Shown here: positions 6,963 through 49,368 of the stretch, in pieces
Layout of the letters: every line of letters begins with the position of its first letter
Position numbering within the stretch: the first letter of the stretch is position 1
Source: an uncultured Methanosarcinales archaeon
GTDB taxonomy: Archaea; Nanobdellota; Nanobdellia; Woesearchaeales; JAGVZT01
DNA length: 60,927 nt
Assembly (NCBI GenBank): GCA_964419615.1
Contig: CAYQPU010000004.1
Location: 1 to 60,927 of the forward strand
Reading direction: 5' to 3'
Program-made: the position numbers and the translations under genes
The notes under the pieces: generated by a model
What the model saw: the letters and a program-made list of their open reading frames with translations, nothing else
What the model was told of the DNA's origin: nothing
Databases searched by the model: none

Positions 6963-6964
6963 TT

Positions 6965-8667: not shown

Positions 8668-8783
8668 AAATTACGATCTTAACTATATAAATTTTAATAA
8701 ATAACATCAAAATTGCTTAGATTAAACTAAGTTTCATTTTCATTAAACATAACCTCATCTAATCTGAAATTAAGCTATAATTT

Positions 8784-9506: not shown

Positions 9507-9544
9507 GCATAAACTTATTATAGAAAAATTGATACACAAACTTT

Positions 9545-10980: not shown

Positions 10981-10988
10981 AAAACTAA

Positions 10989-12868: not shown

Positions 12869-12869
12869 T

Positions 12870-13458: not shown

Positions 13459-13460
13459 TT

Positions 13461-13823
13461 TCACACCAAACACGCATTACATTCTTTTGGAAGATCACAA
13501 TCTTCCTTTCTGTGAATCTTACAAACTAGTAGTTTAACATTAGTAAGATTACAAATCCTTTGTATCTCATCCATAAAAACATCTTTATTTTTTATAATAT
13601 TCCTAGCTGCAATTTTAATCTCATCCAAAATCTCTTGTTCAAATACAATCTCCTTGCCTCTCTTGGCCTTCAGATATTGTGAAATTGCAGCTGGACTAAC
13701 CCCTAATATCTTTGCAGCCTCTTTTTGAGGCATTTTTTCATCATTAACCATAACTTTAGCCAGCTCTTTTCTAATAGTAGGCAAAACATACCAAACAACA
13801 ATTTCCTGAGGCATATGTGTCAT
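13461..13823 (-). CDS. HTH transcriptional regulator (COG2522-like) with Cys/His-rich C-terminus
   Basis: PQEIVVWYVLPTIR, QKEAAKILGVSPAAISQY (HTH), CKIH..C..C..C. Confidence 0.85.
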   Translation of the reverse strand: MTHMPQEIVVWYVLPTIRKELAKVMVNDEKMPQKEAAKILGVSPAAISQYLKAKRGKEIVFEQEILDEIKIAARNIIKNKDVFMDEIQRICNLTNVKLLVCKIHRKEDCDLPKECNACLV

Positions 13824-13970
13824 AAATTTAACAATCGTTAACTTATTTATAAAGATTACGTTTAATATATTTCATATATAAACTCTAAATATGGGGATAT
13901 AATCAATTATATTTATACTATTTTGAGCACTTTTCCTTGCATGATCATATAAAAACCAACCTATTCCCAA

Positions 13971-14345
13971 ATGATCAGAATGGTAAATATATTTGCACTC
14001 AAAGATGAAAGCTTGTATTATAATGATACAGGTATTATACTCGCACTCAGAGAAATCGATGTGAAGTGGAATATTGGTCAACAAAGAAGTCGGGGGCATA
14101 TAGAAAGCACTTATCTTGAATACATTCCTGATGCTAAGTTGTTTGTTATTCACAGCAATCCAGAAAAACTAAGAAGAGATATTTCAAAAGTTGTTGAAAA
14201 TATATTGGAATTATTTCCTAGGATGAAACTAGCTTATTGTGGACAAATACCTGAATCTGACATGCATGAAACAAGACCACAGCCGCTTAATACAGGGCAA
14301 AGTCTGGATATAAAAGTTGAAAATTATGTTAAATATTATCAATGA
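13971..14345 (+). CDS. Hypothetical protein
   Basis: 124-aa ORF, divergent from the Fe-S operon; weak alpha/beta pattern. Confidence 0.55.
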   Translation: MIRMVNIFALKDESLYYNDTGIILALREIDVKWNIGQQRSRGHIESTYLEYIPDAKLFVIHSNPEKLRRDISKVVENILELFPRMKLAYCGQIPESDMHETRPQPLNTGQSLDIKVENYVKYYQ

Positions 14346-14357
14346 TTTGGAGGAAAA

Positions 14358-14720
14358 ATGATAAAAGATAAACAAATGTTAATTGTGGAGAAAAAAGAGA
14401 AGTTTAGGATTTTTTTTTCAATGCACTATGGATATAATGATTTGCACTGGGCTGAAACAGGAAAAGAAGTACTGGAACCAAGAGTTTGGTATGACCTTGA
14501 TGTTATACTATGGAATCTGGATATGTCAGTGGGAGAAGATCATCAAAACTTGGAGAAAATAAGACAAGCTCATCCAGAAATCCCAATTATTGGATATCAT
14601 TCACTCATGGGTCCAAGAGAAGCAAGACAAATCTCCAAAGATTATGATCTTTCAGGTAGAGTTATATTCCCTTCAGCAGGATATGAAGTTGATCATGCGA
14701 TAGACATGGCATTAAAATAA
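14358..14720 (+). CDS. Hypothetical protein, possible pseudo-receiver (CheY-like) domain
   Basis: DLDVILWNLDM...LEKIRQAHPEIPIIGY resembles the receiver consensus DLVILDxxM...LxxIR..P.iPII, but the phospho-Asp and Lys are absent. SD-like GGAGG upstream. Confidence 0.55.
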   Translation: MIKDKQMLIVEKKEKFRIFFSMHYGYNDLHWAETGKEVLEPRVWYDLDVILWNLDMSVGEDHQNLEKIRQAHPEIPIIGYHSLMGPREARQISKDYDLSGRVIFPSAGYEVDHAIDMALK

Positions 14721-14740
14721 GCAAAGTGATCAGATACTAG

Positions 14741-15358
14741 TTAATACTCAACACCCTTTCTTGCCTCAATACCTTTGTCAAAAGGGTGTTTGACATTCTT
14801 AACCTCGCTAACATAATCTGCAGCTTGTTTTAATTCTAAAGGGGCATTTCTTCCAGTAAGCACTAACTCAGTTGTTTTATGCTTATTTTTAATTAAATTA
14901 AGTACTTCCTGTAAATCAACAAGCTTTTCACTAATAGCTCCACAAATCTCATCTAAAATAATAAGATCATACTCTCCTGAACTACTTATATCCTTCGCAA
15001 TATTAAAACCAGTTCTAGCATGCATTTTTTCTGCTTCATCAATTGAAAAGCAATCTCTACACTCTCCACAATATTGATGATTCCTAACTTTATCTCCTTT
15101 TCCAAAGCCGGGTAGTTTCAACTGTTCTTGCTCTTTAATACAATCTTTTCCAAACTGATCCATCAAAATGTGCTCCTTCATAATATTTTTTGCACTAATA
15201 AGTTCACCAGTATATCCACCACCTTTAAGAAATTGAATAATGTAAGTTTTATAACCATGCCCAATAGCTCTAAAAGCTAAACCTAAAGATGCAGTGGTCT
15301 TACCTTTACCATCACCAGTATAAAGATGAACCAAACCAAGCTCTTTTTTATCCTCCAT
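14741..15358 (-). CDS. cobO: ATP:cob(I)alamin adenosyltransferase, CobA/CobO type, with Cys-rich insertion
   Basis: YTGDGKGKTTAS P-loop, QFLKG, YDLIILDEI, ELVLTGRNAP, ADYVSEV, KHPF..G..ARKGVEY. Confidence 0.95.
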   Translation of the reverse strand: MEDKKELGLVHLYTGDGKGKTTASLGLAFRAIGHGYKTYIIQFLKGGGYTGELISAKNIMKEHILMDQFGKDCIKEQEQLKLPGFGKGDKVRNHQYCGECRDCFSIDEAEKMHARTGFNIAKDISSSGEYDLIILDEICGAISEKLVDLQEVLNLIKNKHKTTELVLTGRNAPLELKQAADYVSEVKNVKHPFDKGIEARKGVEY

Positions 15359-17408
15359 CTCCAGACCTCTTTTTCTTACCAGTATCAATATTTAAAACCT
15401 GTTCTGTCCTGCTCTTATCCCTATAAATTGTAATCCCTTTACTTCCCAATTTATACGAAAGTAAATAGACTTTTTTTACATCTTTTATTTTGGCATCATG
15501 TGGAAAATTAACAGTTTTTGAAACAGCATTATCAGTATGAGTTTGAAAAGCAGCTTGAATCTTAACATGCCATTCAGGTGTAATATCATGGGCAGTAACA
15601 AAAACTCTTTTAATGTCCTCTGGAAAATCCATATCAGCAATTGTTCCTTTTTCAGCCACTTTTCTCATAACTTCACCACTATACAAATTTTTTTTTCTAA
15701 GCTCCTCTTCAAATCTTTTGTTAATAACAATCATCTCAAGCTCAGCTTTACCATCACTTCGATTATAAGATTTATTAGTATAAGCAAGGGCAAACAAAGG
15801 TTCAATACCTCCATTACAATCAGCAATCAAAGACAAAGTACCAGTAGGAGCAATTGTGGTTATTGTAGCATTCCTCATATGTTTAAATCCGTTCTTGTCC
15901 CACATACTACCTGCAAAATTAGGAAATGAACCTCTCTTCTCTCCAAGCTGTTCTGAAGCCTCTCTTCCCTTATCAGAAATAAACTTAATTAACTTCTCTG
16001 CTAACTTCACAGCTTCATTACTATTATATGGAATCCCAAGTTTAATCAACATATCTGAAAATCCCATAACTCCTAAACCTATCTTCCTGTTTGACAAAGT
16101 AACCTCTTCAATCTCTTTTATTGGATACTTGTTCATCTCAATTACATTATCCAGAAAATGAACTGCAATTTGTACTGTCTCTTTTAACTTGTCCCAATCA
16201 ACTGTCCACTTCTCTTCAAACATCAGCATCTTTGATAAATTGATTGAGCCAAGATTACATGACTCAAACGGAAGCAAAGGTTGCTCACCACAAGGATTAG
16301 TAGATTCAATCTTTCCAACATGAGGAGTAGGATTATCCATATTCATTCTATCTAAAAACACAATCCCTGGTTCACCAGTTCTCCAAGCATGTTCTGCAAT
16401 AGTATCAAAAACAAGCTTTGCAGATATGCTCTTAACTCTTTTATTATCTCGAGGATTAATTAAGCTAAACTCTTCATCCTTAGAAAGAGCATCCATAAAC
16501 TTTTTAGTTAATCCCACCGAAATATTAAAACTTGTCAGAGAAACACCATCATCTTTTGCAGTAATAAAATCAAGAATTTGAGGATGATGTGCAGGCAAAA
16601 TACCCATCATCCCATATGCTCTAAAACCACTATGGCTAACCTCCTTTGCAACAGTATCAAACACTTTCATAAATGATAAAGGTCCACCCGCAGTATTAAC
16701 AGTCTGACTAACATAATCTCCACTTGGTCTCAAATGACCAAAATTAAAACCAACTCCTCCTCCTTTTTGACAAAGAATTGCAGTATATTTAACAGCATCA
16801 AAAATTGAAATCATAGAATCCTGTATTGGCAGCACAAAACAAGCAGATAATTGCTGAGTCTTTCGGCCAGCGTTTCTGAGGGTTGGTGCATTTGGCAAGA
16901 AAGCCAAACTACACATTACATTGTAAAACTTTTCTTTTGCTGCTTTTGGATCTTTCCCATGCTTTATATCACCATTGGCTACATTCTCTGCCACTCTTAA
17001 AAACAAATCACCAACAGATTCAATTGCATTGCCTTCTTCATCTTTTTCCAAGAATTTTTTCTTTAGAACCTTTGCAGCATTCAAAGATAGTTTTAATTCA
17101 TCTTTAACACCAAGCAAAGATTTTTTATGTCTTAATTTATTTCTTTGCTCTCTATAAAGAATATACGACTTAGCAATCTTACTATGCCCTGAATCCATCA
17201 AAACTTTTTCAACTGTATCATGAACTTGATTAACAGTTGCTATCTCACCATTAAATTTTTCCAGTTTTTTAGTAACTTGATCACTTAACTTTTTTGCAAG
17301 CTTTGGATTAGGGTCTCCAACAGAATCTGAAGCTTTGAAAATTGCTCTAACGATTTTTCCCTGATCAAAGTCTACAACTGATCCCTCTCTCTTCTTGATC
17401 TTCTTCAT
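15348..17408 (-). CDS. nrdJ: Class II (AdoCbl-dependent) ribonucleotide reductase with ATP-cone; paralog A (third in operon)
   Basis: N-terminal ATP-cone (KKREG..VDFD..KI), [44 protein letters not shown]. Confidence 0.95.
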
Positions 17409-19102
17409 TTTGAAAAAGTTTGATCTTTTTTACTTCGGTCTCTATAAATAGTTGTTCCCTTGCAGCCCAATTTCCAAGCAAGCACAAAAGCTTCCTTGAT
17501 TTCATCAATAGAAGCATCATGCGGGAAATTAACAGTCTTTGAGACTGCGTTTTCAGTATATCTTTGGAAAGCAGCTTGGATCCGAATATGCCACTCAGGT
17601 GATATTTCATGTGATGTTACAAAAACCTCTTTTATATCATCAGGTAAATCAAGACTTTTAATAGAACCCTCTTTAGCAATTCTGTCCATTAAAGACTGAC
17701 TATATAATCCTCTTTCCCTTAACTCTTTTTCAAAAACAGGATTAACAATAGTGATAGATGAACCTTTATGATTTTGATCCAAAAGCACTTTTGCTTTTGT
17801 CACAAGTGAAAAAACAGGTTCTATTCCAGAAGAACAACCTGCAATAATTGAAATACCTCCTGTTGGAGCAATAGTTGTTACAGTTGCATTTCTTCTATTA
17901 ATTCTAAAAATACTCTTAGTAAAATTTGGAAAAGCTCCTCTTATCTCAGCAAGCTCTTGTGAAGCAATAACCGCTTGTTCAGAAATAAACTTCATAACCT
18001 TCATTGCAGTCTTTTCACTTTCTTCTGAATTGTAAACAATTTCTAATTTAAACAACATATCTGCAAAACCCATAATGCCCAAACCGATCTTACGATTAGC
18101 AGTAGACATTTTTTCAATTTCAATAAGTGGATACCTATTAACATCAATCACATTATCAAGAAAATGAACCGCATTATGTACAGTCTCCTTTAACATATCC
18201 CAATCAATTTCTTTATCCTTAACCATCTTTGATAAATTAATTGAACCAAGATTGCAGGATTCAAAAGGAAGCAAAGGTTGTTCACCACAAGGATTTGTAG
18301 CATTAATATCACCTACTTGAGGAGTTGTATTTGATTCCTTTATTCTATCTAAGAAAAGTAGGCCAGGATCACCAGTTCTCCATGCACTTTCTGCAATCAT
18401 ATCAAAAACTTCGCAAGCTTTAAGCCTCTCAATAATCTGCTTATTCCTAGGATTAACTAAAACATAACTATCCTCTTCAATCACTTTTTGCATAAACTCA
18501 TCAGTTATTCCAACAGACACATTAAAATTCTTAATTCTACCATCAACAGATTTAAGTTTAATAAACTCAATAATATCTGGGTGGTCAACATTTAAAACAC
18601 CCATGTTTGCACCATGTCTTTTACTACCCTGCATAATTCGATTTAGAGCAGTATCATATGTTTCAATATAGTGTATAGGTCCTGCGGCAACTCCTTCAAC
18701 ATTCCCAACAACATCAAGCGCAGGCCTGATGCTAGAAAAATTAAAACCAGTCCCGCCACCAACAGATTGCACCATCACTGCATGTTTTAGAGTTGTAAAC
18801 AAAGAATCAAGAGAATCTTTTAGAGGCAATACAAAACAAGCACTTAATTGTTGAAACACTCTCCCTGCATTTAAAAGAGTTGGCGAATTAGGAATAAAAA
18901 AACCTTTCGCCATAATTTCATAAAAATCTATTGAAGTTTTATTAACATTGTTTGTATACCTTAAATCAACCTGAGCAATATTCTTAGCAACCCTCCAAAA
19001 CAAATCTTTTGAAGTCTCACCTTCTTTTAAGTATCTATGTTTAAGCACAAACAAAGAATTCCCTTTCATTACAGGTTCTATTAACTCTTTTGTGGACGTC
19101 AT
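17405..19102 (-). CDS. nrdJ: Class II ribonucleotide reductase without ATP-cone; paralog B (second in operon)
   Basis: [44 protein letters not shown]; starts directly at the catalytic core. Confidence 0.95.
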
Positions 19103-39903: not shown

Positions 39904-40809
39904 TTATTCTTCAACACTTTTGAAATAATGAGCTCTTTTATGAGAAATATCTCCTAGTAATGTCAATGGTTCTCCAAATGATAATTCTAGAATCCAACCT
40001 TCAGGCAAATCATAAACAATACTTTTACCATCTACGTAAATTTTTCCTGTTGGTGTTAGTGACTGAATATAAAGTGTATCTGCAAATCTATATTTATCCC
40101 TTTCTTCAAGGTTACCTCTTATGTGATATTGAATTTCTTTTTGATCCAGCGGCATAATGATTCCACCTTCATTTTTCATTGATGCTGTGGAACCTGCAGC
40201 AGTACATACCAGAACTCCATAACTCTCTCTAAAAAACTGAGGGTCAGGATCTTTATTTGTCCAATACCTAAATGAAGTATTTGCTTGAGGTATATGGTGA
40301 GCAAACATAATATCATTAATAATTAGTTCATCAAGTATTTTAGGACCTCCATTTGAATTAACACCATTCGCAACCTTCATTTTTAGTCTATGGATTGTTG
40401 TGGTTGGCTGGGATTCAATACTTTCCAAAAATTCCCTTAATTCAGCTGTTACAATAGAACAAAAATGTCCAACACTCCAATAATCATCTGTATTTTGAGC
40501 TAAAAGAGGAATTCCACTTAAGTGATGTCCTGCACTGAGAAAAGTTCCATCTCCACCTGAACTTAAAACAGCTTTATATTTGTTTTCATCTATGAAAGAT
40601 CCTCTCCTAACATGGTCAAATTCCACACCTAGGTCATTAAGGATCAGAATTGTTTCCTGAACATTGAAAAAATGCTCTCTATAGCTTCTTCTCATATCAA
40701 CAGCATCTTCCTGATCACTAAATAAGAACATTACATCATCTAAGTCACCAGAAAGAATGATCTCTTCATACCTAGTAATTTTTTCATATAGTAAGAGTTT
40801 TCCAATCAT
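39904..40809 (-). CDS. nadK: NAD kinase family protein (divergent)
   Basis: SSGGDGTFL, IINDI, GVLVCTAAGSTA; own TATA (TTTATATA, 40833-40840). Confidence 0.85.
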   Translation of the reverse strand: MIGKLLLYEKITRYEEIILSGDLDDVMFLFSDQEDAVDMRRSYREHFFNVQETILILNDLGVEFDHVRRGSFIDENKYKAVLSSGGDGTFLSAGHHLSGIPLLAQNTDDYWSVGHFCSIVTAELREFLESIESQPTTTIHRLKMKVANGVNSNGGPKILDELIINDIMFAHHIPQANTSFRYWTNKDPDPQFFRESYGVLVCTAAGSTASMKNEGGIIMPLDQKEIQYHIRGNLEERDKYRFADTLYIQSLTPTGKIYVDGKSIVYDLPEGWILELSFGEPLTLLGDISHKRAHYFKSVEE

Positions 40810-40876
40810 TAATATATGCAAACAATTTCTCATATATAAATGTTACCACTAAATAATGGCTAAATCTTGCAGGTTT

Positions 40877-41716
40877 TCACTTAAATCCTTTTAATCTTCT
40901 ATTCTCATCTAGATCCCCAACCATTTCCAAAGGTTCACCATACTCACAAACAATCCTATCACCTAGTCCAAACCTATACCAAACATGCTCTCCATCTACT
41001 CTCATAATACCTTCCCTTGTTTTTGAAACAAGCTCTAAATGTGTTGAGGGTACAAACTCTCCAATCTTGTCCCTAGAACCAGTAATAAAATAAACAAAAT
41101 CAGCATCCAAAGGTAAAACCTCTGATCCAAAGTTGTGCACTCCTCCAGTACTTCCAGAAGGAGTTGCAACAAACAAATCATAACAATCTCTAATCTCATG
41201 AAGCTTCCCCTCTTCAATAAGATCATGCCTAAAATTGCCTCTATTTTCGTGATAAACTAAAATATCATTAAGCACAAGTTCATCCAAAACCTTATCATTA
41301 AAAGTCAACTGTAATCTTTGTACCTTTGTTCTAGGAAAACATTCTAAACTATCCAAAACATCAGCGAACTCATAGGCATTACAGCATGTGTAAATACCTC
41401 TGCTTTTATCTGGATCAGAATTAATACCTAACAAAGGTATACCTCTAATAAAATGTCCAGCTTCAATAAAAGTTCCATCCCCACCAACAGTAACAATAAG
41501 ATCATAACTAGAAAGATCTGGTCTTTTGGATCTATGGAAAATATCAAACTTAACATTTGTGTTAGATAGGGTATTAACAACAGTCTCAAGAGATTTTTCA
41601 TGAGCATCATGACTTTTTAATAAAACAGGATTCTCTGCATAATCTCTTGTCTGTTTATCTGGTGATGATTTATAGTAGCTATGCAAACTATTCTTGTGCA
41701 AGACTAAGATTGTCAT
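40877..41716 (-). CDS. nadK: NAD kinase family protein (divergent)
   Basis: TVGGDGTFI, GINSDP, VLNDIL, VATPSGST, VDGE. Confidence 0.85.
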   Translation of the reverse strand: MTILVLHKNSLHSYYKSSPDKQTRDYAENPVLLKSHDAHEKSLETVVNTLSNTNVKFDIFHRSKRPDLSSYDLIVTVGGDGTFIEAGHFIRGIPLLGINSDPDKSRGIYTCCNAYEFADVLDSLECFPRTKVQRLQLTFNDKVLDELVLNDILVYHENRGNFRHDLIEEGKLHEIRDCYDLFVATPSGSTGGVHNFGSEVLPLDADFVYFITGSRDKIGEFVPSTHLELVSKTREGIMRVDGEHVWYRFGLGDRIVCEYGEPLEMVGDLDENRRLKGFK

Positions 41717-42270
41717 GCTGTCATCAACACCTCTAGTAGATCTTTATCATAAACCTGTTTGACCCGAGCATTACCTTCAATTCTTTCAAGGACTTTTAGT
41801 GTTCCAGCTGGAACATACTCTACCACGCTAAGACCATTATGCATCCTATGCCTAATATCAGTGCCAGATACATGCTTAAACCTTGGAAAATCTGAAGACT
41901 CAAAACCACGCTGCTCAAAATACTCTCTCTCACTTTCAGAAGGAGTATACACTCTATAGAATTCAGGAAATATATCCTTTAAAGACTCAAACCATTTATC
42001 ATAATCATGTAGGTCTGGAATGGGATAAATTGAAACTTGTTTTGTAACAATCTCTTCAACAGATTTTTCAACCATCTCTTTTCTTTCTTCAAATGTAAAT
42101 GGATTACGTTTCCAAGCCTCAACCAAACTCTTATTCTCATGGTCATATTGACTGCTTCCAATACCTATTAGAATCTCATCAATAGATTCATCCTCATCCA
42201 TGAATTTAATAACTTCCAAATGAGCTGTGTGAAAAGGTTGAAACCTTCCAACATATAATCCCCTGTTCAT
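41713..42270 (-). CDS. nadM: Nicotinamide/nicotinate mononucleotide adenylyltransferase
   Basis: GRFQPFHTAH, IGIGSSQ, NPFTFEER, SGTDIR. Confidence 0.92.
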   Translation of the reverse strand: MNRGLYVGRFQPFHTAHLEVIKFMDEDESIDEILIGIGSSQYDHENKSLVEAWKRNPFTFEERKEMVEKSVEEIVTKQVSIYPIPDLHDYDKWFESLKDIFPEFYRVYTPSESEREYFEQRGFESSDFPRFKHVSGTDIRHRMHNGLSVVEYVPAGTLKVLERIEGNARVKQVYDKDLLEVLMTA

Positions 42271-43661
42271 ATCAATACCTCCAATCTTTGCCTTACATCT
42301 ACTGCACATGGTCTTTTCAATGGATCTTTGTCTAGCATCTCATAGACCAATTCCTTTAATTCAGGATTAACATTCAAAACTTCAGAATCTCTGACAGGAC
42401 TATAGGCATGTGCAAGTCCATATTTTAACACCTCACTTTGCCTGCAATCTTCACCTTCTTTGAAATCAAAAAATTCAAAAGGATGTTCTCCAGTCAAAGT
42501 TTCATAAAGAACAATACCAAGCTGAAAAATATCTGAAGCCTTATAAGAAGTAAAACTTAAAACCATCTCTGGTGTCAAGTATCTTGGTGTGGACAATAAT
42601 GAATGAGCTTTTTCACCATGTTGTACCATACCAAAATCAAGTAATGTCAAATCTTCACAATGCACAATAATATTCTTAGGCTTTACATCCATGTAGATAA
42701 TATCTTGTTCGTGCAGATACTTCAAAACATCAGCTAAATCTCTAGCATAACTTATTGCTAATTCTTGTGAAAGCAAATTAGCTGGATCAATATGTTCAGT
42801 GAGTTCATGTCCTTGTGCAAACTCAAAGATCAAAAACTCTGTACCTTCATGGAAAAAACTACCATAATAACCCACAATATTTGGATGTTCAATTTGTTCT
42901 AAAATCTCTTTTTCTCTTGTTTGACCTTTAGGATCAGCATAATCTAGCTGAAACCTAAGTCTTTCTTTTAAAACTCGATCTCCATCTGGAGTGTGTATAG
43001 CACATAAAAAAGCAGAATTTGGAAAAAACCTATCTTCATCACCCTCTTGGATAACACCTAAAACCCTAGCACCATTTTTACAAGCATAATCTTCCACTAA
43101 ACTTAGATTCTGTTCTCTATTAGAGCTCTTTCTAATATTGTAATCAATCTTTGCCAAATGGATTAAATCAGGATTCTTTGTTTTCTTAGCAAGAAAATAT
43201 TTAATAGGAGTGTTACCTCCTCCAGTTGAAACCAATTCCTTAACATTTTCCTTTAGCACCTCAGTTGGATCAAGACCAATTTGTGAAATCTCATTTTTAA
43301 TCCTCTCAAAATCAACAGTTTGAATATAAAAACCATCTTCATCATGATAAAGAGGGATCATAGAAAATGATCTATCAAGTAGAAAGTCAAAATACTCATC
43401 AGGAGATGCAAGTGCTTTTACGACATTAATGTCTCCACCATACCATAATGCTACTTGTCTTAATTCATCAATTCTATCTTGATTACCTGATTTACTATAG
43501 TATTGCAAAGCTTTTTCCAAACTCAAGTTTAATAGATATGCTGTTCCTGCAAACTCAGACGATTGAGAATCATTAGAACTTAAGACAACCTGATCAATAC
43601 TCTCAAGACTAGCAACATCTCCAAGATCAAAAACCTGTTTCATTAATTCATTAAGTTTCAT
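42267..43661 (-). CDS. Hanks-type Ser/Thr protein kinase (non-RD) with ~200-aa unknown N-terminal domain
   Basis: RVLK, REKEIL..IEHPNIV, YMDVKPKN, LLDFG, TPRYLTPE, SDIFQLG, KRP. Confidence 0.92.
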   Translation of the reverse strand: MKLNELMKQVFDLGDVASLESIDQVVLSSNDSQSSEFAGTAYLLNLSLEKALQYYSKSGNQDRIDELRQVALWYGGDINVVKALASPDEYFDFLLDRSFSMIPLYHDEDGFYIQTVDFERIKNEISQIGLDPTEVLKENVKELVSTGGGNTPIKYFLAKKTKNPDLIHLAKIDYNIRKSSNREQNLSLVEDYACKNGARVLGVIQEGDEDRFFPNSAFLCAIHTPDGDRVLKERLRFQLDYADPKGQTREKEILEQIEHPNIVGYYGSFFHEGTEFLIFEFAQGHELTEHIDPANLLSQELAISYARDLADVLKYLHEQDIIYMDVKPKNIIVHCEDLTLLDFGMVQHGEKAHSLLSTPRYLTPEMVLSFTSYKASDIFQLGIVLYETLTGEHPFEFFDFKEGEDCRQSEVLKYGLAHAYSPVRDSEVLNVNPELKELVYEMLDKDPLKRPCAVDVRQRLEVLI

Positions 43662-44449
43662 TCTTCAAACTCATCTCTAAACATACTTATGCTTGCATTA
43701 GCGTACAATTTGCAAAGTGTTGTAATTGCATAAACAGAAGCATCATACTCCCTACCTGCAAGAAGAGTATTTTCGATAAACTCAATATCACATTCATCAT
43801 CAATAAAATCCAAAGCAGCATCACAAAAAATTGCAGCTTTTATGTCATACCTTGAATTAATTGTTGGCAGAACATCTTTTATCACTTCATTATTAATCTG
43901 ATCTACAACTAAAGCTGCAAGACTAATATAGTGACTTGGCACATCCCTAAGATTGTCAAAAGAACCTCCTGCAACCACATTAAGTCTATCATATCTCTCT
44001 TTACTCTCAGCTTCAGTGGATGGATCCAGGATGTTATTCATCAAGTATTGAGCAACAATATACTTTAGCACAAACTCTAGATTTGGATCAAGTTCTGGAT
44101 CTCTTCTCTCCATCTCATCCCCAAATTCAGCAATCCTTGCAAACATAGAAAAATCATCAAAGAAAACTGTGGCAGCATAATCCATCACTACAAAAGCTTT
44201 AAAAAAATCTTCTCTGGTAGTTTTTATAGGATTATTAATAGCCTCATCACTAACAAGTTTATCAATATAAAGAGCTTGTACTGGACCAAAGTTTAATGGA
44301 AAATCCTTGCTAGAGTCATCTGGTAGATTCTGTAAAGTATAACCAAACATTACTAGTTGATGAGTTTCAATCTCACCCAGGTCAATCTCTCTAATGTTTG
44401 TTTTTGTATTCTTGTTCTTTAATGCTGCAATTAAATCTATATCATTCAT
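43658..44449 (-). CDS. Hypothetical helical acidic protein with a DDxxD motif
   Basis: ATG 44449 overlaps the E1 stop; FFDDF and FIDDECD segments; family not established. Confidence 0.6.
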   Translation of the reverse strand: MNDIDLIAALKNKNTKTNIREIDLGEIETHQLVMFGYTLQNLPDDSSKDFPLNFGPVQALYIDKLVSDEAINNPIKTTREDFFKAFVVMDYAATVFFDDFSMFARIAEFGDEMERRDPELDPNLEFVLKYIVAQYLMNNILDPSTEAESKERYDRLNVVAGGSFDNLRDVPSHYISLAALVVDQINNEVIKDVLPTINSRYDIKAAIFCDAALDFIDDECDIEFIENTLLAGREYDASVYAITTLCKLYANASISMFRDEFEE

Positions 44450-45860
44450 TTTGTTCACCATACAAATGCCCCATTTTTTCCATCCAATCACTTTTGTGAG
44501 CTCTTGGTTTACATCCCCCTTGCATTGAGAAAACACCGAATCTAAGGTCCTCTCTAGTACTATACTTGATGATACCCTTCAATGGATCCTTACCATTTGC
44601 AAGCCTTATTGCCTCACCAACAAGAGCAGAACCCATTGTCTTATTTGTATTAATTACAGAGGCATCAGGTGCGTAAATGCAACTAGCAGGATTATAAGAT
44701 GCAAGAGCCATGTCATCAATACCAGTCTGGCAATCAAGGCATGCAGTTCTACCTGGAAACACAGTACTAACCTGACCACCACTAGTACTAGTACCAACAC
44801 TCAGATATGGAACACCATATTCATTGACTAAATAATTTAGCAAAGCTCTAGTTGCATGATTGTCAACACAATCCACAACCAAATCAATACCCTCAAATAG
44901 ATAATCAGAATCTAAATCTACTTTAGCGTCAATAGCAGTAATGTTTGCTTCAGGTTTAATCCTAAGCAATTCTCTTCTTAAGGCCTCAGACTTCTTATGA
45001 CCAACAGAATTATGGAAAAATACTTGTCTGTTTAGATTATGATCTTCAACAACATCATAATCAACTATGATTAATTCACCAACTCCAGCTACAACAAAAC
45101 CCTTTGCAGTAAAATTACCTGAAGCACCTGCTCCAATCTGTAAAACAGTCAAATCAGAAATATCAGTTGAAGTAAGAGGAGAATTTCTCTTCCAATCAAA
45201 TCTACTTGCAGACTCCAAATTATAAACAATAATATCCTCAAGTTCCTCCTCTCTTTCAAGAGGCATTACTAATTTTCTTGCCTCATCAACACCAAATCCT
45301 GCAATAAATTGACTAGGAATCACTCCCTGAGGTTCTCCAAAAAAATCATGAAACAAAGCATTTTGAAAAATCTCCATGCTTGAGTCAAGAGTATAAACCG
45401 CACCAGCTGAAACTTTCTCAGATGCAACCAAACTAACAACTGGAATATCAAAATCTGCTGCATATTCCAAAACATTAAGCTTTGATATAGGGTTATTTGT
45501 TGCTTCAATAATAACATCAGGATCACCAATGAGAGTAACATTCCTACCTTTAGCAACATCTATGTTATGAGCTCTAACTTCAACATCTGGATTTATTTTC
45601 TGGGCAAACTCTGCAATTGACTTTGCTCTGACCCTTCCTGGTGAATGCACATAACCCTGTGTGAAATCTCTTTCCTGTGCAATTCCATGTCCATATATTT
45701 CTATTTGACCAAAACCAAGAGCTGCTAAAGTGACTGCACAGTCGTTGGCTAAAGCATCTCTGCCAATCAAAGCAACCTTGGCATCACTTAATAGCTCTTG
45801 ATCCCATCCATCTATTAGTTCTTGTCTATTGTATCTATTAACCTGGTTCATATTATTCAC
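44442..45860 (-). CDS. Ubiquitin-like activating enzyme E1 with two ThiF domains (inactive + active adenylation)
   Basis: N-domain RYNRQ with degenerate IGRDALA. C-domain GAGASG, DYDVVEDHNLNRQ, DCVDN, TACLDC and PASC (candidate catalytic Cys). Confidence 0.9.
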   Translation of the reverse strand: MNNMNQVNRYNRQELIDGWDQELLSDAKVALIGRDALANDCAVTLAALGFGQIEIYGHGIAQERDFTQGYVHSPGRVRAKSIAEFAQKINPDVEVRAHNIDVAKGRNVTLIGDPDVIIEATNNPISKLNVLEYAADFDIPVVSLVASEKVSAGAVYTLDSSMEIFQNALFHDFFGEPQGVIPSQFIAGFGVDEARKLVMPLEREEELEDIIVYNLESASRFDWKRNSPLTSTDISDLTVLQIGAGASGNFTAKGFVVAGVGELIIVDYDVVEDHNLNRQVFFHNSVGHKKSEALRRELLRIKPEANITAIDAKVDLDSDYLFEGIDLVVDCVDNHATRALLNYLVNEYGVPYLSVGTSTSGGQVSTVFPGRTACLDCQTGIDDMALASYNPASCIYAPDASVINTNKTMGSALVGEAIRLANGKDPLKGIIKYSTREDLRFGVFSMQGGCKPRAHKSDWMEKMGHLYGEQNE

Positions 45861-47392
45861 CTTGTTTTGTATCTCCTCAACTTATTGCCACTCAGTAAGT
45901 GAGATTCAATCAAACCATCAACTTGATGAGCATCCTCTTGGTATAAAACTGGAAAATCTGTGAGAAAAGTAACAAAATTCTCGTCTAAATTACCTCTAAA
46001 AAGATCATCAGTCAACTGATAACAGACATAAGATCTTTGTGGAAGCAAGAAGAAATCTCTTACACCGGCTTTTGGTCTTCGTTTTGAAAATTTTACTGCG
46101 TGTGAAAAATCACAGTAATCAGTTCCAACCATCTTATCAACAATGTTGGCAACAAATTTTCTATACTTATGATCATATCTCTTATCAAAATCAATATGCT
46201 CCCCCATTGCATACTCAGCCATTGCCCACTGTACTTCTTGGGCAAGAAAGTAACAATCTTCTAACCTGGAAGCTTGATCTTTTCCCATGGCAACAGCAGT
46301 ATCAGGATCAATTAGAAAATTCTGAACAAATTCCAAAAAGACTGTATTCCTAAGCTCAAATATCTCAAGTTTTTCTCCTGAATTCAATTCTTGCATTGAG
46401 GTATAGCTAAACCTCTCCATAAAATCAGCAATAAACTCTTCTTCTGACAATGGGTCATTTAGATTAGCAAATTCTTCGTTTACTAAACTCTCATAGAGCA
46501 TTTCCTCAGGATTAGCACCTAAAATGCTCGTAATCATATGAGAATGCTCACCACCACTAGAAATATAATCAATAGCACACCCAAAAAATTGTCTTCCTAG
46601 TTCCTGATACTCTTTTGAGAAATCCGGACCTCTAACTCTTTCTCTGTAAAATACTCCACTAATTGAGATCTTATTTCTAATATCCTTTTCAATATTTGTA
46701 AGTGTATATGATACACTTTCTGGATCGTTAAAAACAAACATCCTTGGTCTAGTGGGACTATTTCGCAAAAATTCACCATTGACTTTTGTTTTACTCATAT
46801 GCTCTAAGTAAAACTCTTCTCTAACATTTACAACAAGGCTGTATGCAAATGGATCTCTCTCAATTTTCCTTAGAATTCTAGCATCATCACTAACCTGTAC
46901 ACCAGACAAAGTATAATTATCAAACTCAAGCAAATCATCTTCAGTAGTAAACACAGCTTCACTGGTCTTAAACATGGTGTGTGGGGCAATTCCATTTAGA
47001 ACCTTTTGAAAGTTCCTCACATCAGTATCAGAATGAAAGGTACTCATTGTTCCATGTGAGTGCCACCAACCAGCTATCTCGTAATTCATACTATCAATAA
47101 TTCTAACCGAACGAGCTACTCCCTCTGGACTAACTCTAACATAAGCACTCTCTGCAGACTGATTATCGGCTAGGTAAACATCGGTTATAACATCATCTAA
47201 GGAGCCTTTTGGTTTAAGCAAGTAACCATAAGCTTCCATCGGTTGGTTGGACATCTCTGTAATTAATTTTGAATACAAAAAAGCCTTATTCAGAGCAGCA
47301 CTAGAAATATGAAATTCTCTAGATACATCAAATTCAGTTTGTTGCTGAGCCAATTGATTTAATATTTGTAATCTTTGTAATCTTTGTGTCAT
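45857..47392 (-). CDS. JAB/JAMM metallopeptidase with ~300-aa C-terminal extension
   Basis: PMEAYGYL and GWWHSHGTMSTFHSDTD form a complete E..HxH-x7-S-x2-D motif. Confidence 0.9.
   Translation of the reverse strand: MTQRLQRLQILNQLAQQQTEFDVSREFHISSAALNKAFLYSKLITEMSNQPMEAYGYLLKPKGSLDDVITDVYLADNQSAESAYVRVSPEGVARSVRIIDSMNYEIAGWWHSHGTMSTFHSDTDVRNFQKVLNGIAPHTMFKTSEAVFTTEDDLLEFDNYTLSGVQVSDDARILRKIERDPFAYSLVVNVREEFYLEHMSKTKVNGEFLRNSPTRPRMFVFNDPESVSYTLTNIEKDIRNKISISGVFYRERVRGPDFSKEYQELGRQFFGCAIDYISSGGEHSHMITSILGANPEEMLYESLVNEEFANLNDPLSEEEFIADFMERFSYTSMQELNSGEKLEIFELRNTVFLEFVQNFLIDPDTAVAMGKDQASRLEDCYFLAQEVQWAMAEYAMGEHIDFDKRYDHKYRKFVANIVDKMVGTDYCDFSHAVKFSKRRPKAGVRDFFLLPQRSYVCYQLTDDLFRGNLDENFVTFLTDFPVLYQEDAHQVDGLIESHLLSGNKLRRYKTR
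46699..46719. promoter_or_regulatory. Intragenic copy of the NrtR-like operator
   Basis: TAAGTGTA-TATGA-TACACTTT, with a perfect AGTGTA-N5-TACACT core. Confidence 0.4.
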
Positions 47393-47399: not shown

Positions 47400-48818
47400 T
47401 CACTCCATTAATTCATTTAATACAACAAGACCTCTTCTATCCACTTGTTCTCTTGTTAACCAATCTGAGAAATGGTTTTTGTCAAGTCTGTTGTATGGAT
47501 TATTCCCGGATCTATATCCTGTCATTAGTGTTTTTGTGCCCTGGTCTAACAATCTTGCAACTTTTTCCTCAGAATTTAAACGATGAGTGTTTGAAGCAGT
47601 ACTCCAACTACCAAGGCAAATTTTTTGCATTGATGAACTGCCAGACAAGAATGGATGTGCGTAGCTGTTTATAACAATTGGATTACCTACATCAAAACCA
47701 CTTCCACTTTGAGAAATTCTTACAGCAACCTCAGCAGGTCCAAAAGGAACATAACAATCCTGACTACTTACATGAGGACTCTTTAGTGCATATGGTGGAG
47801 TTCTAACAAAAGCATAATAACCTCCATTTAATATCTTAAATCCTGCATCATTAACAACATATTCCCGTCTATTGGCTAATTGTTCCAACCTTTGTCTTTG
47901 CTCAGCAATCTTGTGTAGTTCAAGACTTTGATATTCATCATTTTCAATTGCAGCAATTTTAATTCTTTTCTCAAGCAAATTTCCATGAAGCCTTTCAACA
48001 TCATCTGCACTTCCAACAAGAATTGGAAAATACAACCTATCATCTAGGAAGACAGATGAAGTATTAACTAAGTTTTTTAATTTTGAATATAATCTTCTAT
48101 CAATATCGAATCTTTCTGTTGTAAGTAATGAAGCTGCTTCATCTTTACTTGCTGTGGTTGGAAATCGTCTAAATGCAGCACAAGCACTCGGTGTCATTTC
48201 CTCCTGAAATTCTTCTCCAAGTTCAGGTACAGTAAACAACATGTAAACTCTGTCATCAACTATTAAGAAAGGATTGGTACCCAAGGCCTGTGTTAGGGCA
48301 GAATAATCTCCTGAAGCATTTGTAACAGGTCTATACTCATTTTCAATTCTTGAAACTAAATCCCTTTTTACCCGAGCCAGCTCCCGTAATACAGATAAAG
48401 GAACTTCAACTGCACCTTCTGGTTGTTCATAAACAATATCTTCACCTAGTAACTCAAGCAATCTTTGATCACGATTCTCATCAGTAATTAATGGTAAAAC
48501 TCTATCCGCCAAAAATGCTAAAGTTCTGTTATTACTTATTAGCTGATTGATTCTATCCCTTGACATGTAATCTTGTCTTGACAAAGTACGCATGAATCTT
48601 GTTTGAAAAGCAACAATAGCTTCCTGATTTCTTTCCATATACAGTGACTCTAATTCATCAATCTCCATAACAGGCTCAACAGAATAATCTATACCTGCAA
48701 GATCTAGAAAATCAACCCCATTATCTCCTAATGTTGTTTGAAAAAGTGTATCATTGTAAATAATTAAAGGTGTTTCTAAATCAAATAAATTTGTTCCAGG
48801 TAATGTGCTTGATCTCAT
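47400..48818 (-). CDS. E2 (UBC-fold)-like conjugating protein with long N-terminal region
   Basis: ATG 48818 with GAGGA SD; C-terminal YAHPFLSGSSSMQKICLGSW resembles the E2 HP..ICL active site; preceded by a coiled-coil segment. Confidence 0.68.
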   Translation of the reverse strand: MRSSTLPGTNLFDLETPLIIYNDTLFQTTLGDNGVDFLDLAGIDYSVEPVMEIDELESLYMERNQEAIVAFQTRFMRTLSRQDYMSRDRINQLISNNRTLAFLADRVLPLITDENRDQRLLELLGEDIVYEQPEGAVEVPLSVLRELARVKRDLVSRIENEYRPVTNASGDYSALTQALGTNPFLIVDDRVYMLFTVPELGEEFQEEMTPSACAAFRRFPTTASKDEAASLLTTERFDIDRRLYSKLKNLVNTSSVFLDDRLYFPILVGSADDVERLHGNLLEKRIKIAAIENDEYQSLELHKIAEQRQRLEQLANRREYVVNDAGFKILNGGYYAFVRTPPYALKSPHVSSQDCYVPFGPAEVAVRISQSGSGFDVGNPIVINSYAHPFLSGSSSMQKICLGSWSTASNTHRLNSEEKVARLLDQGTKTLMTGYRSGNNPYNRLDKNHFSDWLTREQVDRRGLVVLNELME

Positions 48819-48835
48819 TTTATTCCTCAGTTTTG

Positions 48836-48883
48836 AAAAAAAAATTGCCAGAAGAAAACCAGCAGCTAGCGGTTTTAATCTGG
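48836..48883 (-). terminator. Hairpin plus T9 tract between the Ubl and E2 genes
   Basis: Stems CCAGA/TCTGG (48848-52 with 48879-83) and AAAACC/GGTTTT (48855-60 with 48871-76), then A9 at 48836-44 (T9 on the minus strand). Confidence 0.55.
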
Positions 48884-48900
48884 ACAAAGTAAAACTAATA

Positions 48901-49368
48901 TTACCTACCTCCTTCCTCATGCGTTAGTATTGCAAGTTTTAGGTAATTGAAAGGAGCTGCACCTGCAATCTCTTCCTGATAAAACCTATCACTTTGCGAT
49001 ACTGTTTGAGTTAGGGTGCTTCCACCTGTAGGTTGTCTCTCATTGTACATAACCATGTGGTTATGTTGACCCAAACGCTCAACAACGTTATCTTTAATCG
49101 TTACTTCAGATCCTTGTATTGAGGTTTCATTGATCATGTAATCAACAATTCCTGCAATACTCAAGTTACCGTCCTCCATAACGTCTGGTGGAATTGTTCT
49201 AGTGATATACGAACTAGACAACCCACCTCCGAGCTCAACAATTGTTTTTAACTCCGGGTCAAATTCGGGTGTTATCTCTGGAAGTACATCTACTTCCGTT
49301 TCAATCGGTTCTACATCTGTACTTAATCTTCTTTGATATGTACTAGATGATGAATCCATACTTACCAT
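48901..49368 (-). CDS. Ubiquitin-like (beta-grasp) modifier candidate, C-terminus ...LKLAILTHEEGG-R
   Basis: C-terminal GG plus one residue after a hydrophobic strand; first gene of the Ubl-E2-JAB-E1 run; strong GGAGGT SD. The fold is inferred. Confidence 0.62.
   Translation of the reverse strand: MVSMDSSSSTYQRRLSTDVEPIETEVDVLPEITPEFDPELKTIVELGGGLSSSYITRTIPPDVMEDGNLSIAGIVDYMINETSIQGSEVTIKDNVVERLGQHNHMVMYNERQPTGGSTLTQTVSQSDRFYQEEIAGAAPFNYLKLAILTHEEGGR

What the first reader, a model, noticed from the sequence alone, without database searches (positions are those of the whole stretch)
42267..44449. Non-RD Ser/Thr kinase and a DDxxD protein fused into the ubiquitin-like cassette
Seen: the E1 stop overlaps the DDxxD gene (8 nt), which overlaps the kinase (ATGA), which overlaps nadM (ATGA). 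The kinase catalytic loop is YMDVKPKN (non-RD). The middle protein has FFDDF and FIDDECD, reminiscent of class I isoprenoid-synthase Mg sites (weak). Established: Bil operons as I know them have four genes and no kinase. Inference: phosphorylation-conjugation cross-talk, where the kinase or the DDxxD protein is the Ubl target or effector, or the kinase modifies the Ubl.
Basis: partly seen in the sequence, partly recalled or inferred. Interest (0 to 1): 0.65.

Follow-up and report, generated by a model that had tools for sequence, protein, structure and literature searches.

The report
Kinase module joined to archaeal ubiquitin-like cassette
A protein kinase and an orphan helical protein are fixed parts of a rare gene cluster in small archaea that also holds a ubiquitin-like tagging machine and an NAD-making enzyme, and part of this cluster recurs in bacteria without the tagging machine, so it looks like a new, undescribed system rather than an ordinary operon.

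Summary
The gene overlaps (8, 4 and 4 nt) and the non-RD catalytic loop YMDVKPKN are real. The two "DDxxD" motifs are present but are not conserved in any homologue. The protein is an orphan all-alpha family with no terpene-synthase fold.

The kinase and this helical protein (DD) are not chance neighbours. In a sample of 401 genomes of the same archaeal order, 10 carry DD. Those same 10 carry the full-length E2-like gene, and in all 10 the kinase gene follows DD. Where contigs allow, the order is Ubl, E2-like, JAB, E1, DD, kinase, NadM and usually a barrel-only pyruvate kinase (absent from this genome).

DD, kinase, NadM and the pyruvate kinase barrel also occur together in high-GC contigs (one member labelled Proteobacteria) that lack Ubl, E1 and JAB. 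Those contigs also hold a standalone homologue of the E2-like protein's N-terminal part. There the archaeal Ubl's N-terminal tail (MGSY..., Ser/Thr-rich) sits on vWA-like proteins.

About 45 other genomes, and this genome on another contig, have related cassettes without the kinase.

My best reading is a mobile, nucleotide/NAD-linked system in which an active, atypical kinase acts on the Ubl tail. The conserved linkage is solid. The mechanism is inferred. I found no description of it in the searched literature.

The parts
42267..43661 (-). Ser/Thr protein kinase, 464 aa. It has a family-specific helical N-domain (aa 1-198) followed by a complete bilobal ePK domain.
   Evidence: Pfam Pkinase 136 bits. 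The AF2 model has pLDDT 83.7. Foldseek matches DCLK1 and CaMKII with TM 0.75 normalised to the target. K232, E250/E252, D325, K327, N330, D342-F-G and SLLSTPxYxxPE are invariant in 6 orthologues.
43068..43661 (-). Kinase N-terminal domain (aa 1-198): helical with one beta hairpin.
   Evidence: The A7 profile finds 51 representatives among 1.84 billion proteins, 44 of them at E<=1e-10. Nearly all are 400-690 aa with the domain at the N-terminus. All 10 sampled carry Pkinase behind it.
42672..42695 (-). Catalytic loop YMDVKPKN (non-RD; Tyr replaces the His of HRD).
   Evidence: Read directly. Y-x-D-[VILM]-K-x-x-N occurs in 29 of the 33 representatives with a readable loop, and Arg never precedes the Asp.
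43020..43049 (-). Atypical nucleotide-binding loop Q205-x-G207-D208-x-D-x-F-F-P214, in place of GxGxxG between beta1 and beta2.
   Evidence: Q205, G207, D208 and P214 are invariant in alignment A5. The strands at 199-205 and 219-224 are from the model.
43658..44449 (-). DD protein, 263 aa: an orphan all-alpha family. Conserved motifs are FDP, EDFFKG-x-V-x-LDY, ELE-x5-LDPDL and NDL+A-x4-D.
   Evidence: No Pfam, NCBIfam or PADLOC match. There are 16 clusters among 5.8 billion proteins. The AF2 model has pLDDT 79 and 15 helices. Foldseek found nothing in PDB or BFVD.
44150..44164 (-). It is not conserved.
   Evidence: Alignments.
43787..43807 (-). It is not conserved.
   Evidence: Alignments.
41713..42270 (-). 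NadM (NMNAT-type nucleotidyltransferase, 185 aa), of the cluster type. It is the only NMNAT-like gene in the genome.
   Evidence: NCBIfam PRK01153 scores 120.6 bits against a cut-off of 127. It is single-copy. In the tree it falls with the NadMs that follow the kinase, including the bacterial ones, with support 93/79.
44442..45860 (-). E1, 472 aa, with two ThiF domains.
   Evidence: Pfam ThiF 188.5 bits in 2 stretches.
45857..47392 (-). JAB/JAMM protease, 511 aa, with a long C-terminal extension.
   Evidence: Pfam Prok-JAB 33.8 bits against a cut-off of 25.
47400..48920 (-). E2-like protein, 506 aa. The N-terminal roughly 330 aa are homologous to a standalone bacterial protein of about 280 aa (here called UNK282). 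The C-terminal core carries the invariant H422-P-F-L...C435-x-G437.
   Evidence: hhalign of UNK282 against the E2 family gives probability 99.8 and E 5.6e-30. The E2 fold is not confirmed.
48901..49368 (-). Ubl precursor, 155 aa. It has a 46-aa Ser/Thr-rich N-terminal tail and ends in ...HEEGG-R.
   Evidence: The orthologues share (T/S)H(D/E)EGG followed by a tail of 1-14 aa, and 8 of 9 begin MGSY or MGGGS (the window's copy does not). The tails are 16-33% Ser+Thr against 7-17% in the rest of the protein.

Best explanation
Shown: the kinase and the helical DD protein are two fixed subunits of a rare multi-gene system that moves between genomes. In one order of small-genome archaea the system reads Ubl, E2-like, JAB, E1, DD, kinase, NadM and usually a barrel-only pyruvate kinase. 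The four genes from DD to the pyruvate kinase, together with the N-terminal domain of the E2-like protein, form a module of their own. This module also occurs in bacteria, where it is joined to AAA+, vWA-like and radical-SAM genes instead of a Ubl cascade. The kinase keeps every catalytic residue. It belongs to a small dedicated family defined by a helical N-domain, a Y-x-D catalytic loop without the RD arginine, and an acidic loop in place of the glycine-rich loop. A non-RD kinase generally does not need activation-loop phosphorylation, so this one is probably controlled by its partners.

Inferred: the kinase phosphorylates the Ser/Thr-rich N-terminal tail of the system's own Ubl. In bacteria the same tail sits on vWA-like proteins. 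Phosphorylation of the tail would gate whether the E1 and the E2-like enzyme conjugate the Ubl, and JAB would mature the Ubl precursor and reverse conjugation. DD and the E2-like N-domain would act as the scaffold or recognition part. DD is not a terpene synthase. NadM and the pyruvate kinase barrel would tie the system to the NAD/ATP pool.

Most likely biological role: a nucleotide/NAD-centred conflict or stress-response system, not core housekeeping.
For: Linkage:
- DD-family genes were found in 10 of 401 genomes of the order.
- Full-length E2-like genes were found in exactly the same 10 genomes.
- The kinase follows DD in all 10.
- The same gene order occurs in the metagenome loci L013/L014 and L015.
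- Start and stop codons overlap in the window and in several orthologous loci.

Independent module:
- L016, L018/L019, L020 and L021 carry DD, NadM, UNK282, kinase and the pyruvate kinase barrel but no Ubl, E1 or JAB.
- UNK282 equals the E2-like N-domain, with hhalign probability 99.8.
- The window's NadM clusters with the NadMs that follow the kinase and is at most 43% identical to a bacterial one.

Active, dedicated kinase.

Tail:
- MGSY or MGGGS followed by a Ser/Thr-rich tail is found on 8 of 9 Ubls and on 8 of 8 vWA-like proteins.
- The same start occurs on 1 of 1846 ORFs in the window's own genome.
- It is absent from the Ubls of kinase-less cassettes.

Conflict-like traits:
- The distribution is patchy, across about 9 families, and the system is absent from the same genus and family.
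- It has been exchanged between domains.
- The partner gene sets are swappable, including a Ham1/ThyA-like/QueC-like variant and a transglutaminase variant.
Against: - There is no biochemical or expression evidence.
- The G011 variant keeps the tailed protein, the pyruvate kinase barrel, UNK282 and DD but has no kinase and no NadM. The tail therefore tracks DD and UNK282 at least as well as it tracks the kinase, and its partner may be one of those.
- The window's own Ubl lacks the literal MGSY start.
- The E2 fold is unconfirmed.
- In the window, and in at least five other loci, the cluster lies among NAD salvage genes, and here NadM is the genome's only NMNAT. This fits a metabolic-regulation role as well as a conflict role.
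- No PADLOC defence model fits beyond generic kinase and ThiF domain hits.
Confidence: 0.42

Rival explanations
1. NAD-homeostasis controller. The kinase and the Ubl cascade regulate the NAD salvage enzymes encoded around them (NadM, NadK, NadE, Nudix) after translation. This would adjust NAD(P) supply in a symbiotic archaeon. The targets are metabolic enzymes, not viral proteins.
For: In the window the cluster lies between NadE/Nudix and NadM/NadK/NadK. NadM, Nudix, NadE, NadK or PncB genes flank the cluster in L013, L024, L025, L027 and L028. The cluster NadM is the only NMNAT in this genome.
Against: The bacterial versions keep NadM but have no other NAD genes nearby. The G011 variant has no NadM at all. 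The cluster is absent from the same genus and from most of the family. A barrel-only pyruvate kinase and radical-SAM or QueC-like partners are not NAD enzymes.
Confidence: 0.25
2. Biosynthetic pathway for a modified nucleotide or cofactor. NadM, the pyruvate kinase barrel, the kinase and DD would be enzymes acting on a small molecule. The Ubl and E1 would act as a ThiS/MoaD-like carrier rather than a protein tag.
For: The partner sets are nucleotide enzymes: NadM, pyruvate kinase barrel, a QueE-like radical-SAM protein, and Ham1, ThyA-like and QueC-like proteins. DD has many invariant acidic residues.
Against: The E1 has a tandem inactive-plus-active ThiF layout. A Cys-bearing E2-like protein and a JAB with a long extension are also conserved, which points to protein conjugation. 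The kinase is a normal protein-kinase fold. The tail motif sits on proteins. DD has no detectable enzyme fold.
Confidence: 0.12
3. The DD protein is a class I isoprenoid (terpenoid) synthase-like enzyme that uses the two DDxxD-like sites to bind Mg2+.
For: Only the presence of FFDDF and FIDDECD in this one sequence.
Against: Neither site is conserved in 26 family members. There is no Pfam hit in any member, no PDB profile hit, and no Foldseek match to any terpene synthase (best E 0.48, TM below 0.21).
Confidence: 0.01
4. Chance neighbourhood. The kinase and DD are unrelated genes that happen to lie between a Ubl cassette and nadM in this genome.
For: None beyond the absence of direct functional data.
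Against: Co-occurrence is 10 of 10 in the same order, across about 9 families, at 22-40% identity, and the same holds in metagenome loci and across domains.
Confidence: 0.02

Closest known systems
BilABCD operons (type I and type II Bil; bacterial Ubl, E2, JAB DUB, E1 antiphage systems; Hör et al. 2023 and Chambers et al. 2023 preprints)
   Same: Both have a Ubl precursor with a conserved Gly and a short tail that a JAB must remove, an E1 with two ThiF-type domains, a JAB protease and a Cys-bearing E2-position protein, all in one tightly packed operon.
   Different: Here there are seven to eight conserved genes. An obligate Hanks-type kinase, an orphan helical protein, an NMNAT and usually a pyruvate kinase barrel are added. 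The E2-position protein is about 500 aa with a large N-domain and shows no significant profile match to BilB. The Ubl has a long Ser/Thr-rich N-terminal tail. The hosts are archaea. The Bil papers do not mention any kinase.
Type II CBASS Cap2/Cap3 (E1-E2 fusion plus JAB regulating a nucleotidyltransferase)
   Same: In both, E1/E2/JAB chemistry is coupled to a nucleotidyltransferase in one operon. The E1's ThiF domain hits PADLOC Cap2 'E1-E2' models.
   Different: Here there is a separate Ubl. The nucleotidyltransferase is of the NMNAT type, not a CD-NTase. There is no recognisable effector, and a kinase is present.
Defence-associated Hanks kinases (PD-T4-6, MADS6, PglW of BREX)
   Same: The kinase domain scores against these PADLOC and NCBIfam models (mad6 138 bits; PD-T4-6 up to 118 bits).
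   Different: The matches cover the generic kinase domain only and lie far below NCBIfam cut-offs (72.6 against 460 for MADS6). The N-domain, the Y-x-D loop and the gene neighbourhood are specific to this family.
Archaeal SAMP/UbaA/HvJAMM1 sampylation
   Same: Both are archaeal Ubl conjugation systems with an E1 and a JAMM protease. NCBIfam SAMP-E1 scores 115 bits.
   Different: UbaA is a single-domain homodimeric E1 with no E2. Here the score is far below the cut-off (450), the E1 has tandem domains, an E2-like protein is present, and the system is an accessory, patchily distributed cluster.

Membership tests
Hanks-type (eukaryotic-like) Ser/Thr protein kinase | Pkinase profile match above the curated cut-off and a bilobal fold | tested here: met
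   Pfam PF00069 scores 136 bits against 31.7. Foldseek matches DCLK1 and CaMKII at E 4e-12 with TM 0.75 normalised to the target.
Hanks-type (eukaryotic-like) Ser/Thr protein kinase | Catalytic residues: beta3 Lys, alphaC Glu, catalytic Asp, Asn, DFG Asp and the APE motif | tested here: met
   K232, E250/E252, D325, N330, D342-F-G and TPRYLTPE are invariant in the orthologues.
Hanks-type (eukaryotic-like) Ser/Thr protein kinase | HRD arginine (RD class) and a GxGxxG glycine-rich loop | tested here: not met
   The catalytic loop is Y-M-D, and this holds across the family. The glycine-rich loop is replaced by QxGDxDxFFP. It is a non-RD, atypical-loop subclass.
Class I terpenoid/isoprenoid synthase | Conserved DDxxD and a second metal-binding motif | tested here: not met
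   Neither site is conserved in 26 members.
Class I terpenoid/isoprenoid synthase | Terpene-synthase alpha fold | tested here: not met
   Foldseek against PDB gives a best E of 0.48 and no synthase among the hits. There are no Pfam or PDB profile hits.
BilABCD (Bil) operon | E1 with inactive plus active adenylation (ThiF) domains | tested here: met
   There are two ThiF stretches, 188.5 bits. The catalytic details of the domains were not examined here.
BilABCD (Bil) operon | JAB/JAMM deubiquitinase | tested here: met
   Prok-JAB scores 33.8 bits against 25.
BilABCD (Bil) operon | BilB-type E2 | tested here: inconclusive
   A conserved HPFL...C-x-G motif is present. hhalign gives probability 0.24 to E. 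aridi BilB and 0.64 to UbcH5b. PDB profile searches found nothing.
BilABCD (Bil) operon | Ubl with a beta-grasp fold and a conserved C-terminal Gly plus tail | tested here: inconclusive
   (T/S)H(D/E)EGG followed by a tail of 1-14 aa is conserved in 9 orthologues. The fold was not predicted.
BilABCD (Bil) operon | Four-gene composition; protects against phage | tested here: not met
   The composition is seven to eight conserved genes including a kinase. Antiviral function cannot be tested with these tools.
Archaeal NMNAT (NadM) | Equivalog profile above cut-off; GRxQPFHxGH and SGTxIR motifs | tested here: inconclusive
   PRK01153 scores 120.6 bits against 127, and TIGR01527 scores 110.8 against 181.2. 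The motifs GRFQPFHTAH and SGTDIR are present. The activity was not assayed.

The most novel reading that the evidence does not exclude
This is a previously undescribed family of nucleotide-centred conflict systems shared by archaea and bacteria. Its invariant core is a tailed substrate protein, an orphan helical protein (DD), the UNK282 domain and a pyruvate kinase barrel. In the archaeal form the core is wired to a complete Ubl cascade and a dedicated kinase. That would make it the first prokaryotic case in which phosphorylation of a Ubl's own tail gates its conjugation, coupled to NAD synthesis.
Probability: 0.3. Interest if true: 0.85.

Novelty: new variant of a known kind. Interest (0 to 1): 0.66.

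Why it matters
Known prokaryotic Ubl conjugation systems (Bil, Cap2/Cap3, SAMP) have no dedicated kinase. Interplay between phosphorylation and ubiquitin-type tagging is regarded as a eukaryotic hallmark. Here a kinase, an NAD-forming enzyme and a Ubl cascade are locked together in archaea, and half of the system recurs in bacteria with a different protein-handling set (AAA+ and vWA). This offers three things:
- A tractable entry to how such cross-talk could arise.
- A candidate new defence or stress system centred on NAD and nucleotides.
- Three orphan families with a defined genomic context: DD, the kinase N-domain and UNK282.

Tried and rejected
Searches that led nowhere:
- Pfam, NCBIfam and PADLOC on the DD protein gave nothing. 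Pfam on 26 family members at E<=10 gave only scattered single hits.
- The PDB sequence-profile search with the DD family gave noise only.
- Foldseek of the DD model against PDB and BFVD gave a best E of 0.48 and 0.7. A few weak Pho80-cyclin rows (TM about 0.2) are not evidence.
- The genome-contig scan with the E2-like alignment recovered only one locus that I already held.
- Literature searches for this gene combination, for DUF1257/DUF2997 and for DPANN Ubl systems found no description.
- Earlier findings of this scan looked up by sequence returned only notes on this same window.

Tests that were inconclusive or negative:
None was significant.
- hhalign among all the cluster families, looking for hidden relationships, found only UNK282 to E2-like, plus a weak link between the vWA-like and Ubl N-termini.
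- The 277-aa protein downstream of the second E1 on contig C6 is not detectably DD-like (probability 3.6).

Rejected: the terpene synthase reading, the chance-neighbourhood reading, and membership in PD-T4-6 or MADS6.
Full report
OBSERVATION

I read the minus strand of 42200-44600.
- The E1 gene ends with TGA at 44444-44442.
- The next gene starts at ATG 44449, so the two overlap by 8 nt.
- That gene's stop and the kinase start share ATGA at 43661-43658.
- The kinase stop and the NadM start share ATGA at 42270-42267.

Homologue alignments support ATG 44449 as the true start of the middle gene: MNDIDLIAALK aligns with MSDDQLLAAIR and MDDLTSIMDDLK. The same 8-nt E1 overlap recurs in locus L008.

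The kinase loop YMDVKPKN lies at residues 323-330. FFDDF (residues 96-100) and FIDDECD (residues 215-221) are present in the middle protein. So the sequence-level observation is correct.

THE GENOME

The window is a whole contig (C4) of an assembly of 1.48 Mb in 64 contigs with about 33% G+C. The assembly has an archaeal 16S-tRNA-23S operon. Relatives in the same order have genomes of 0.6-2.7 Mb spread over more than 100 families. Earlier notes call the organism DPANN-like; I did not verify the taxon.

The minus-strand gene row is:
- PncB-like, PncA-like, NadE, Nudix
- Ubl (155 aa), E2-like (506 aa), JAB (511 aa), E1 (472 aa, two ThiF stretches)
- the middle protein, 263 aa, called DD below
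- kinase (464 aa), NadM, and two NAD-kinase-like genes

THE KINASE

It matches Pfam Pkinase at 136 bits. An AF2 model built on six orthologues (pLDDT 83.7) superposes on DCLK1, CaMKII and PknB as a full bilobal kinase. K232, E250/E252, D325, K327, N330, D342-F-G and SLLSTPxYxxPE are invariant, so it looks catalytically competent.

Three features set the family apart.
1. The HRD triplet is replaced by Y-x-D. This holds in 29 of the 33 library representatives with a readable loop, and Arg never precedes the Asp.
2. The glycine-rich loop is replaced by a conserved, acidic QxGDxDxFFP.
3. There is an N-terminal helical domain of about 200 residues. A profile of this domain alone finds only 51 representatives among 1.84 billion proteins, 44 of them at E<=1e-10, and nearly all are 400-690 aa with the domain at the N-terminus. 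All ten that I sampled carry Pkinase behind it.

The PADLOC and NCBIfam hits to PD-T4-6, MADS6, PglW and LanL cover only the generic kinase domain and lie far below the curated cut-offs.

THE 'DDxxD' PROTEIN

It has no Pfam, NCBIfam or PADLOC match. A profile search of 5.8 billion proteins finds 16 clusters.

The first site reads FFNEY, IRGST, VLGDE or VAGRS. The second reads VQDEPAK, IESK, LENKKY or LPDDEV.

The family's real signatures are FDP, EDFFKG-x-V-x-LDY, ELE-x5-LDPDL and NDL+A-x4-D, with D121 and D210 invariant.

The AF2 model (pLDDT 79, pTM 0.79) is a bundle of 15 helices. Foldseek finds nothing in PDB (best E 0.48, TM below 0.21) or in BFVD. The PDB profile search and Pfam scans of all 26 members give only noise. 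The isoprenoid-synthase idea is therefore rejected. DD is an orphan all-alpha family.

IS THE LINKAGE REAL?

Yes.
- In a sample of 401 genomes of the order, the DD profile hits 10 genomes strongly (E<=1e-44). It also hits one divergent variant (G011) and one fragment.
- A profile of the E2-like protein gives full-length hits (E<=1e-130) in exactly the same 10 genomes.
- These 10 genomes belong to about 9 families.
- The same genus and the rest of the window's family lack the system.
- In every locus with enough contig (G027, G181, G243, G302, G332, G371, G388 and the metagenome contigs L013/L014 and L015) the order is Ubl, E2-like, JAB, E1, DD, kinase, NadM, and then usually a barrel-only pyruvate kinase.
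- In the fragmented genomes G015 and G127 the kinase, or its N-domain, starts right after DD.
- Identities to the window proteins are 22-45%, so this is not recent shared ancestry.

In a phylum-wide sample of 401 genomes, the DD family was found only in genomes of this order.

CASSETTES WITHOUT THE KINASE ALSO EXIST

About 45 other genomes of the order carry more distant E2-like genes (E 1e-44 to 1e-4). The loci I inspected are Ubl, E2-like, JAB and E1 cassettes with other accessories and no kinase N-domain. For example, L029 carries a second JAB, a transglutaminase-like protein and two unknown proteins.

The window's own genome has such a second set on contig C6. It has an E2-like core of 191 aa (hhalign probability 93), a tandem-ThiF E1 of 467 aa (27% identical to the window's E1) and unknown neighbours.

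So the kinase-bearing form is one distinct sub-type of a broader archaeal cassette family.

THE MODULE HAS A LIFE OF ITS OWN

DD-family members also lie in high-G+C contigs: L016, L018/L019, L020 and L021. One family member is labelled Proteobacteria. These contigs have no Ubl, E1 or JAB.

There the order is:
- DUF1257, DUF2997, a classic AAA ATPase, a vWA-like protein
- DD, NadM, an unknown protein of about 280 aa (UNK282), the kinase, the pyruvate kinase barrel
- a small radical-SAM (Fer4_12) protein, a YfaP_C protein, and a second vWA-like protein

UNK282 is homologous to the N-terminal two thirds of the archaeal E2-like protein (hhalign probability 99.8, E 5.6e-30, 247 columns). The '506-aa E2' is therefore an UNK282-type domain plus a C-terminal core that carries the invariant H422-P-F-L...C435-x-G437.

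A NadM tree places the window's NadM with the NadMs that follow the kinase, including the bacterial ones (best identity 43%). It is separate from the NadM and NadM-Nudix genes that lie upstream of some clusters (support 93/79). NadM is thus a component of the module and not its border.

A third version, in archaeon G011, keeps a vWA-like protein, a pyruvate kinase barrel, UNK282 and DD (probability 99.7). It replaces the kinase and NadM with Ham1, a thymidylate-synthase-like protein, a QueC-like protein and an AAA_5 ATPase. The most constant core is therefore a tailed protein, the pyruvate kinase barrel, UNK282 and DD. The enzyme sets that vary around this core are nucleotide enzymes.

A SHARED TAIL

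Eight of the nine archaeal Ubls start MGSYDTGE... or MGGGSSGV.... A disordered tail of 44-70 residues follows, with 16-33% Ser+Thr against 7-17% in the rest of the protein.

All eight vWA-like proteins start MGSYAGSSDWDD... (MGGGSTDY in G011), followed by a similar tail. The hhalign match is weak (probability 27.7, E 6e-4). However, only 1 of 1846 ORFs in the window's genome starts this way. The Ubls of kinase-less cassettes lack the tail.

All the Ubls end in (T/S)H(D/E)EGG plus 1-14 residues, which means a JAB must process them. The window's copy has a Ser/Thr-rich tail but not the literal MGSY.

MECHANISM

What is shown:
- a conserved, mobile cluster of 7-8 genes
- an apparently active, dedicated, non-RD kinase
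- an orphan helical partner
- an E2-like protein whose N-domain belongs to the same module
- a shared tail on the 'substrate-like' protein

What I infer: the kinase, DD and the UNK282 domain assemble around the tail. The kinase phosphorylates the tail and so controls whether the Ubl is conjugated. NadM and the pyruvate kinase barrel couple the system to NAD and ATP.

The overall role is most likely a nucleotide/NAD-centred conflict or stress system. The reasons are the patchy distribution, the exchange between domains and the swappable partner sets.

The main rival is post-translational control of NAD salvage. It is favoured by the NAD genes around the cluster in the window and in L013, L024, L025, L027 and L028, and by NadM being the only NMNAT here. 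NadM is also missing from 5 of 6 relatives in the family.

The caveat against a kinase-tail pairing is the G011 variant, which has the tail but no kinase.

COMPARISON WITH KNOWN SYSTEMS

The Ubl, E1 and JAB part resembles Bil operons and, more loosely, Cap2/Cap3 and SAMP systems. Membership in Bil is not established. The E2 is unconfirmed, the composition differs, and the Bil preprints never mention a kinase. I found no paper that describes this gene combination.

LIMITS

- Gene starts in the fetched loci were chosen by script.
- The census rests on samples of 401 genomes.

Noticed in passing
own genome, contig C6:47000-53400 (locus L034 3075-9337, minus strand): There is a second Ubl-type cassette without a kinase in the same genome. 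It has an E2-like core of 191 aa (hhalign probability 93 to the C-terminus of the E2-like family), a 382-aa protein weakly JAB-like, a tandem-ThiF E1 of 467 aa (27% identical to the window's E1), and then proteins of 277, 569 and 198 aa with no Pfam match. A RelA_SpoT-like gene lies next to it on the other strand.
   Followed up: partly
L009 (G011:C27), about 11870-19328: Variant cluster in an archaeon of the same order: vWA-like protein with an MGGGS tail, pyruvate kinase barrel, Ham1/ITPase, thymidylate-synthase-like, QueC-like, UNK282, DD-family protein, AAA_5 ATPase. It has no kinase and no NadM, which points to nucleotide modification chemistry around the same core.
   Followed up: partly
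L018 1-11878, L016, L020, L021 (high-GC metagenome contigs): Bacterial cluster: YfaP_C/vWA protein, DUF1257, DUF2997, AAA ATPase (weak IetA-like PADLOC hit), vWA-like, DD, NadM, UNK282, kinase, pyruvate kinase barrel, small radical-SAM (Fer4_12, NrdG/QueE-like), YfaP_C, vWA-like. I found no description of it in the searched literature.
   Followed up: partly
L029 (G318:C58) 3317-13981: Kinase-less relative of the cassette: Ubl, E2-like (414 aa), JAB, E1, a second JAB-containing protein of 761 aa, a transglutaminase-like protein of 230 aa, a 500-aa protein with a distant DD-like segment (hhalign probability 84), and a 689-aa unknown.
   Followed up: partly
window 39904-41716 and the whole genome: The window's cluster lacks the barrel-only pyruvate kinase and the roughly 200-aa NadM extension found in most orthologous clusters. 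No pyruvate kinase is detectable anywhere in the genome by tblastn. Two divergent NAD-kinase-like paralogues (30% identical to each other) follow NadM instead.
   Followed up: partly
L013 12516-13760, L015 11970-13124, L022 4745-5914, L024 11839-13011, L025 6288-7166: The cluster-type NadM often carries a C-terminal extension of about 200 aa, or is followed by it as a separate gene. The extension has no Pfam match.
   Followed up: no
L026 (G243:C9) 14312-17671: Two tandem full-length E2-like genes (541 and 575 aa) lie in one cluster.
   Followed up: no
genomes G001-G007 (same genus and family): NadM is detectable in only 1 of 6 close relatives (G005). The NAD salvage genes, and not only the Ubl/kinase cassette, therefore seem to be accessory in this lineage.
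   Followed up: partly
own genome C1:6953-10092 (L001 3283-3408): The tRNA in the 16S-23S spacer spans 126 nt, which suggests an intron.
   Followed up: no
L022 (G302:C13) 8593-9729: About 1.1 kb lies between E1 and the DD gene in this orthologous cluster, where the other loci overlap or nearly abut. I did not examine its content.
   Followed up: no
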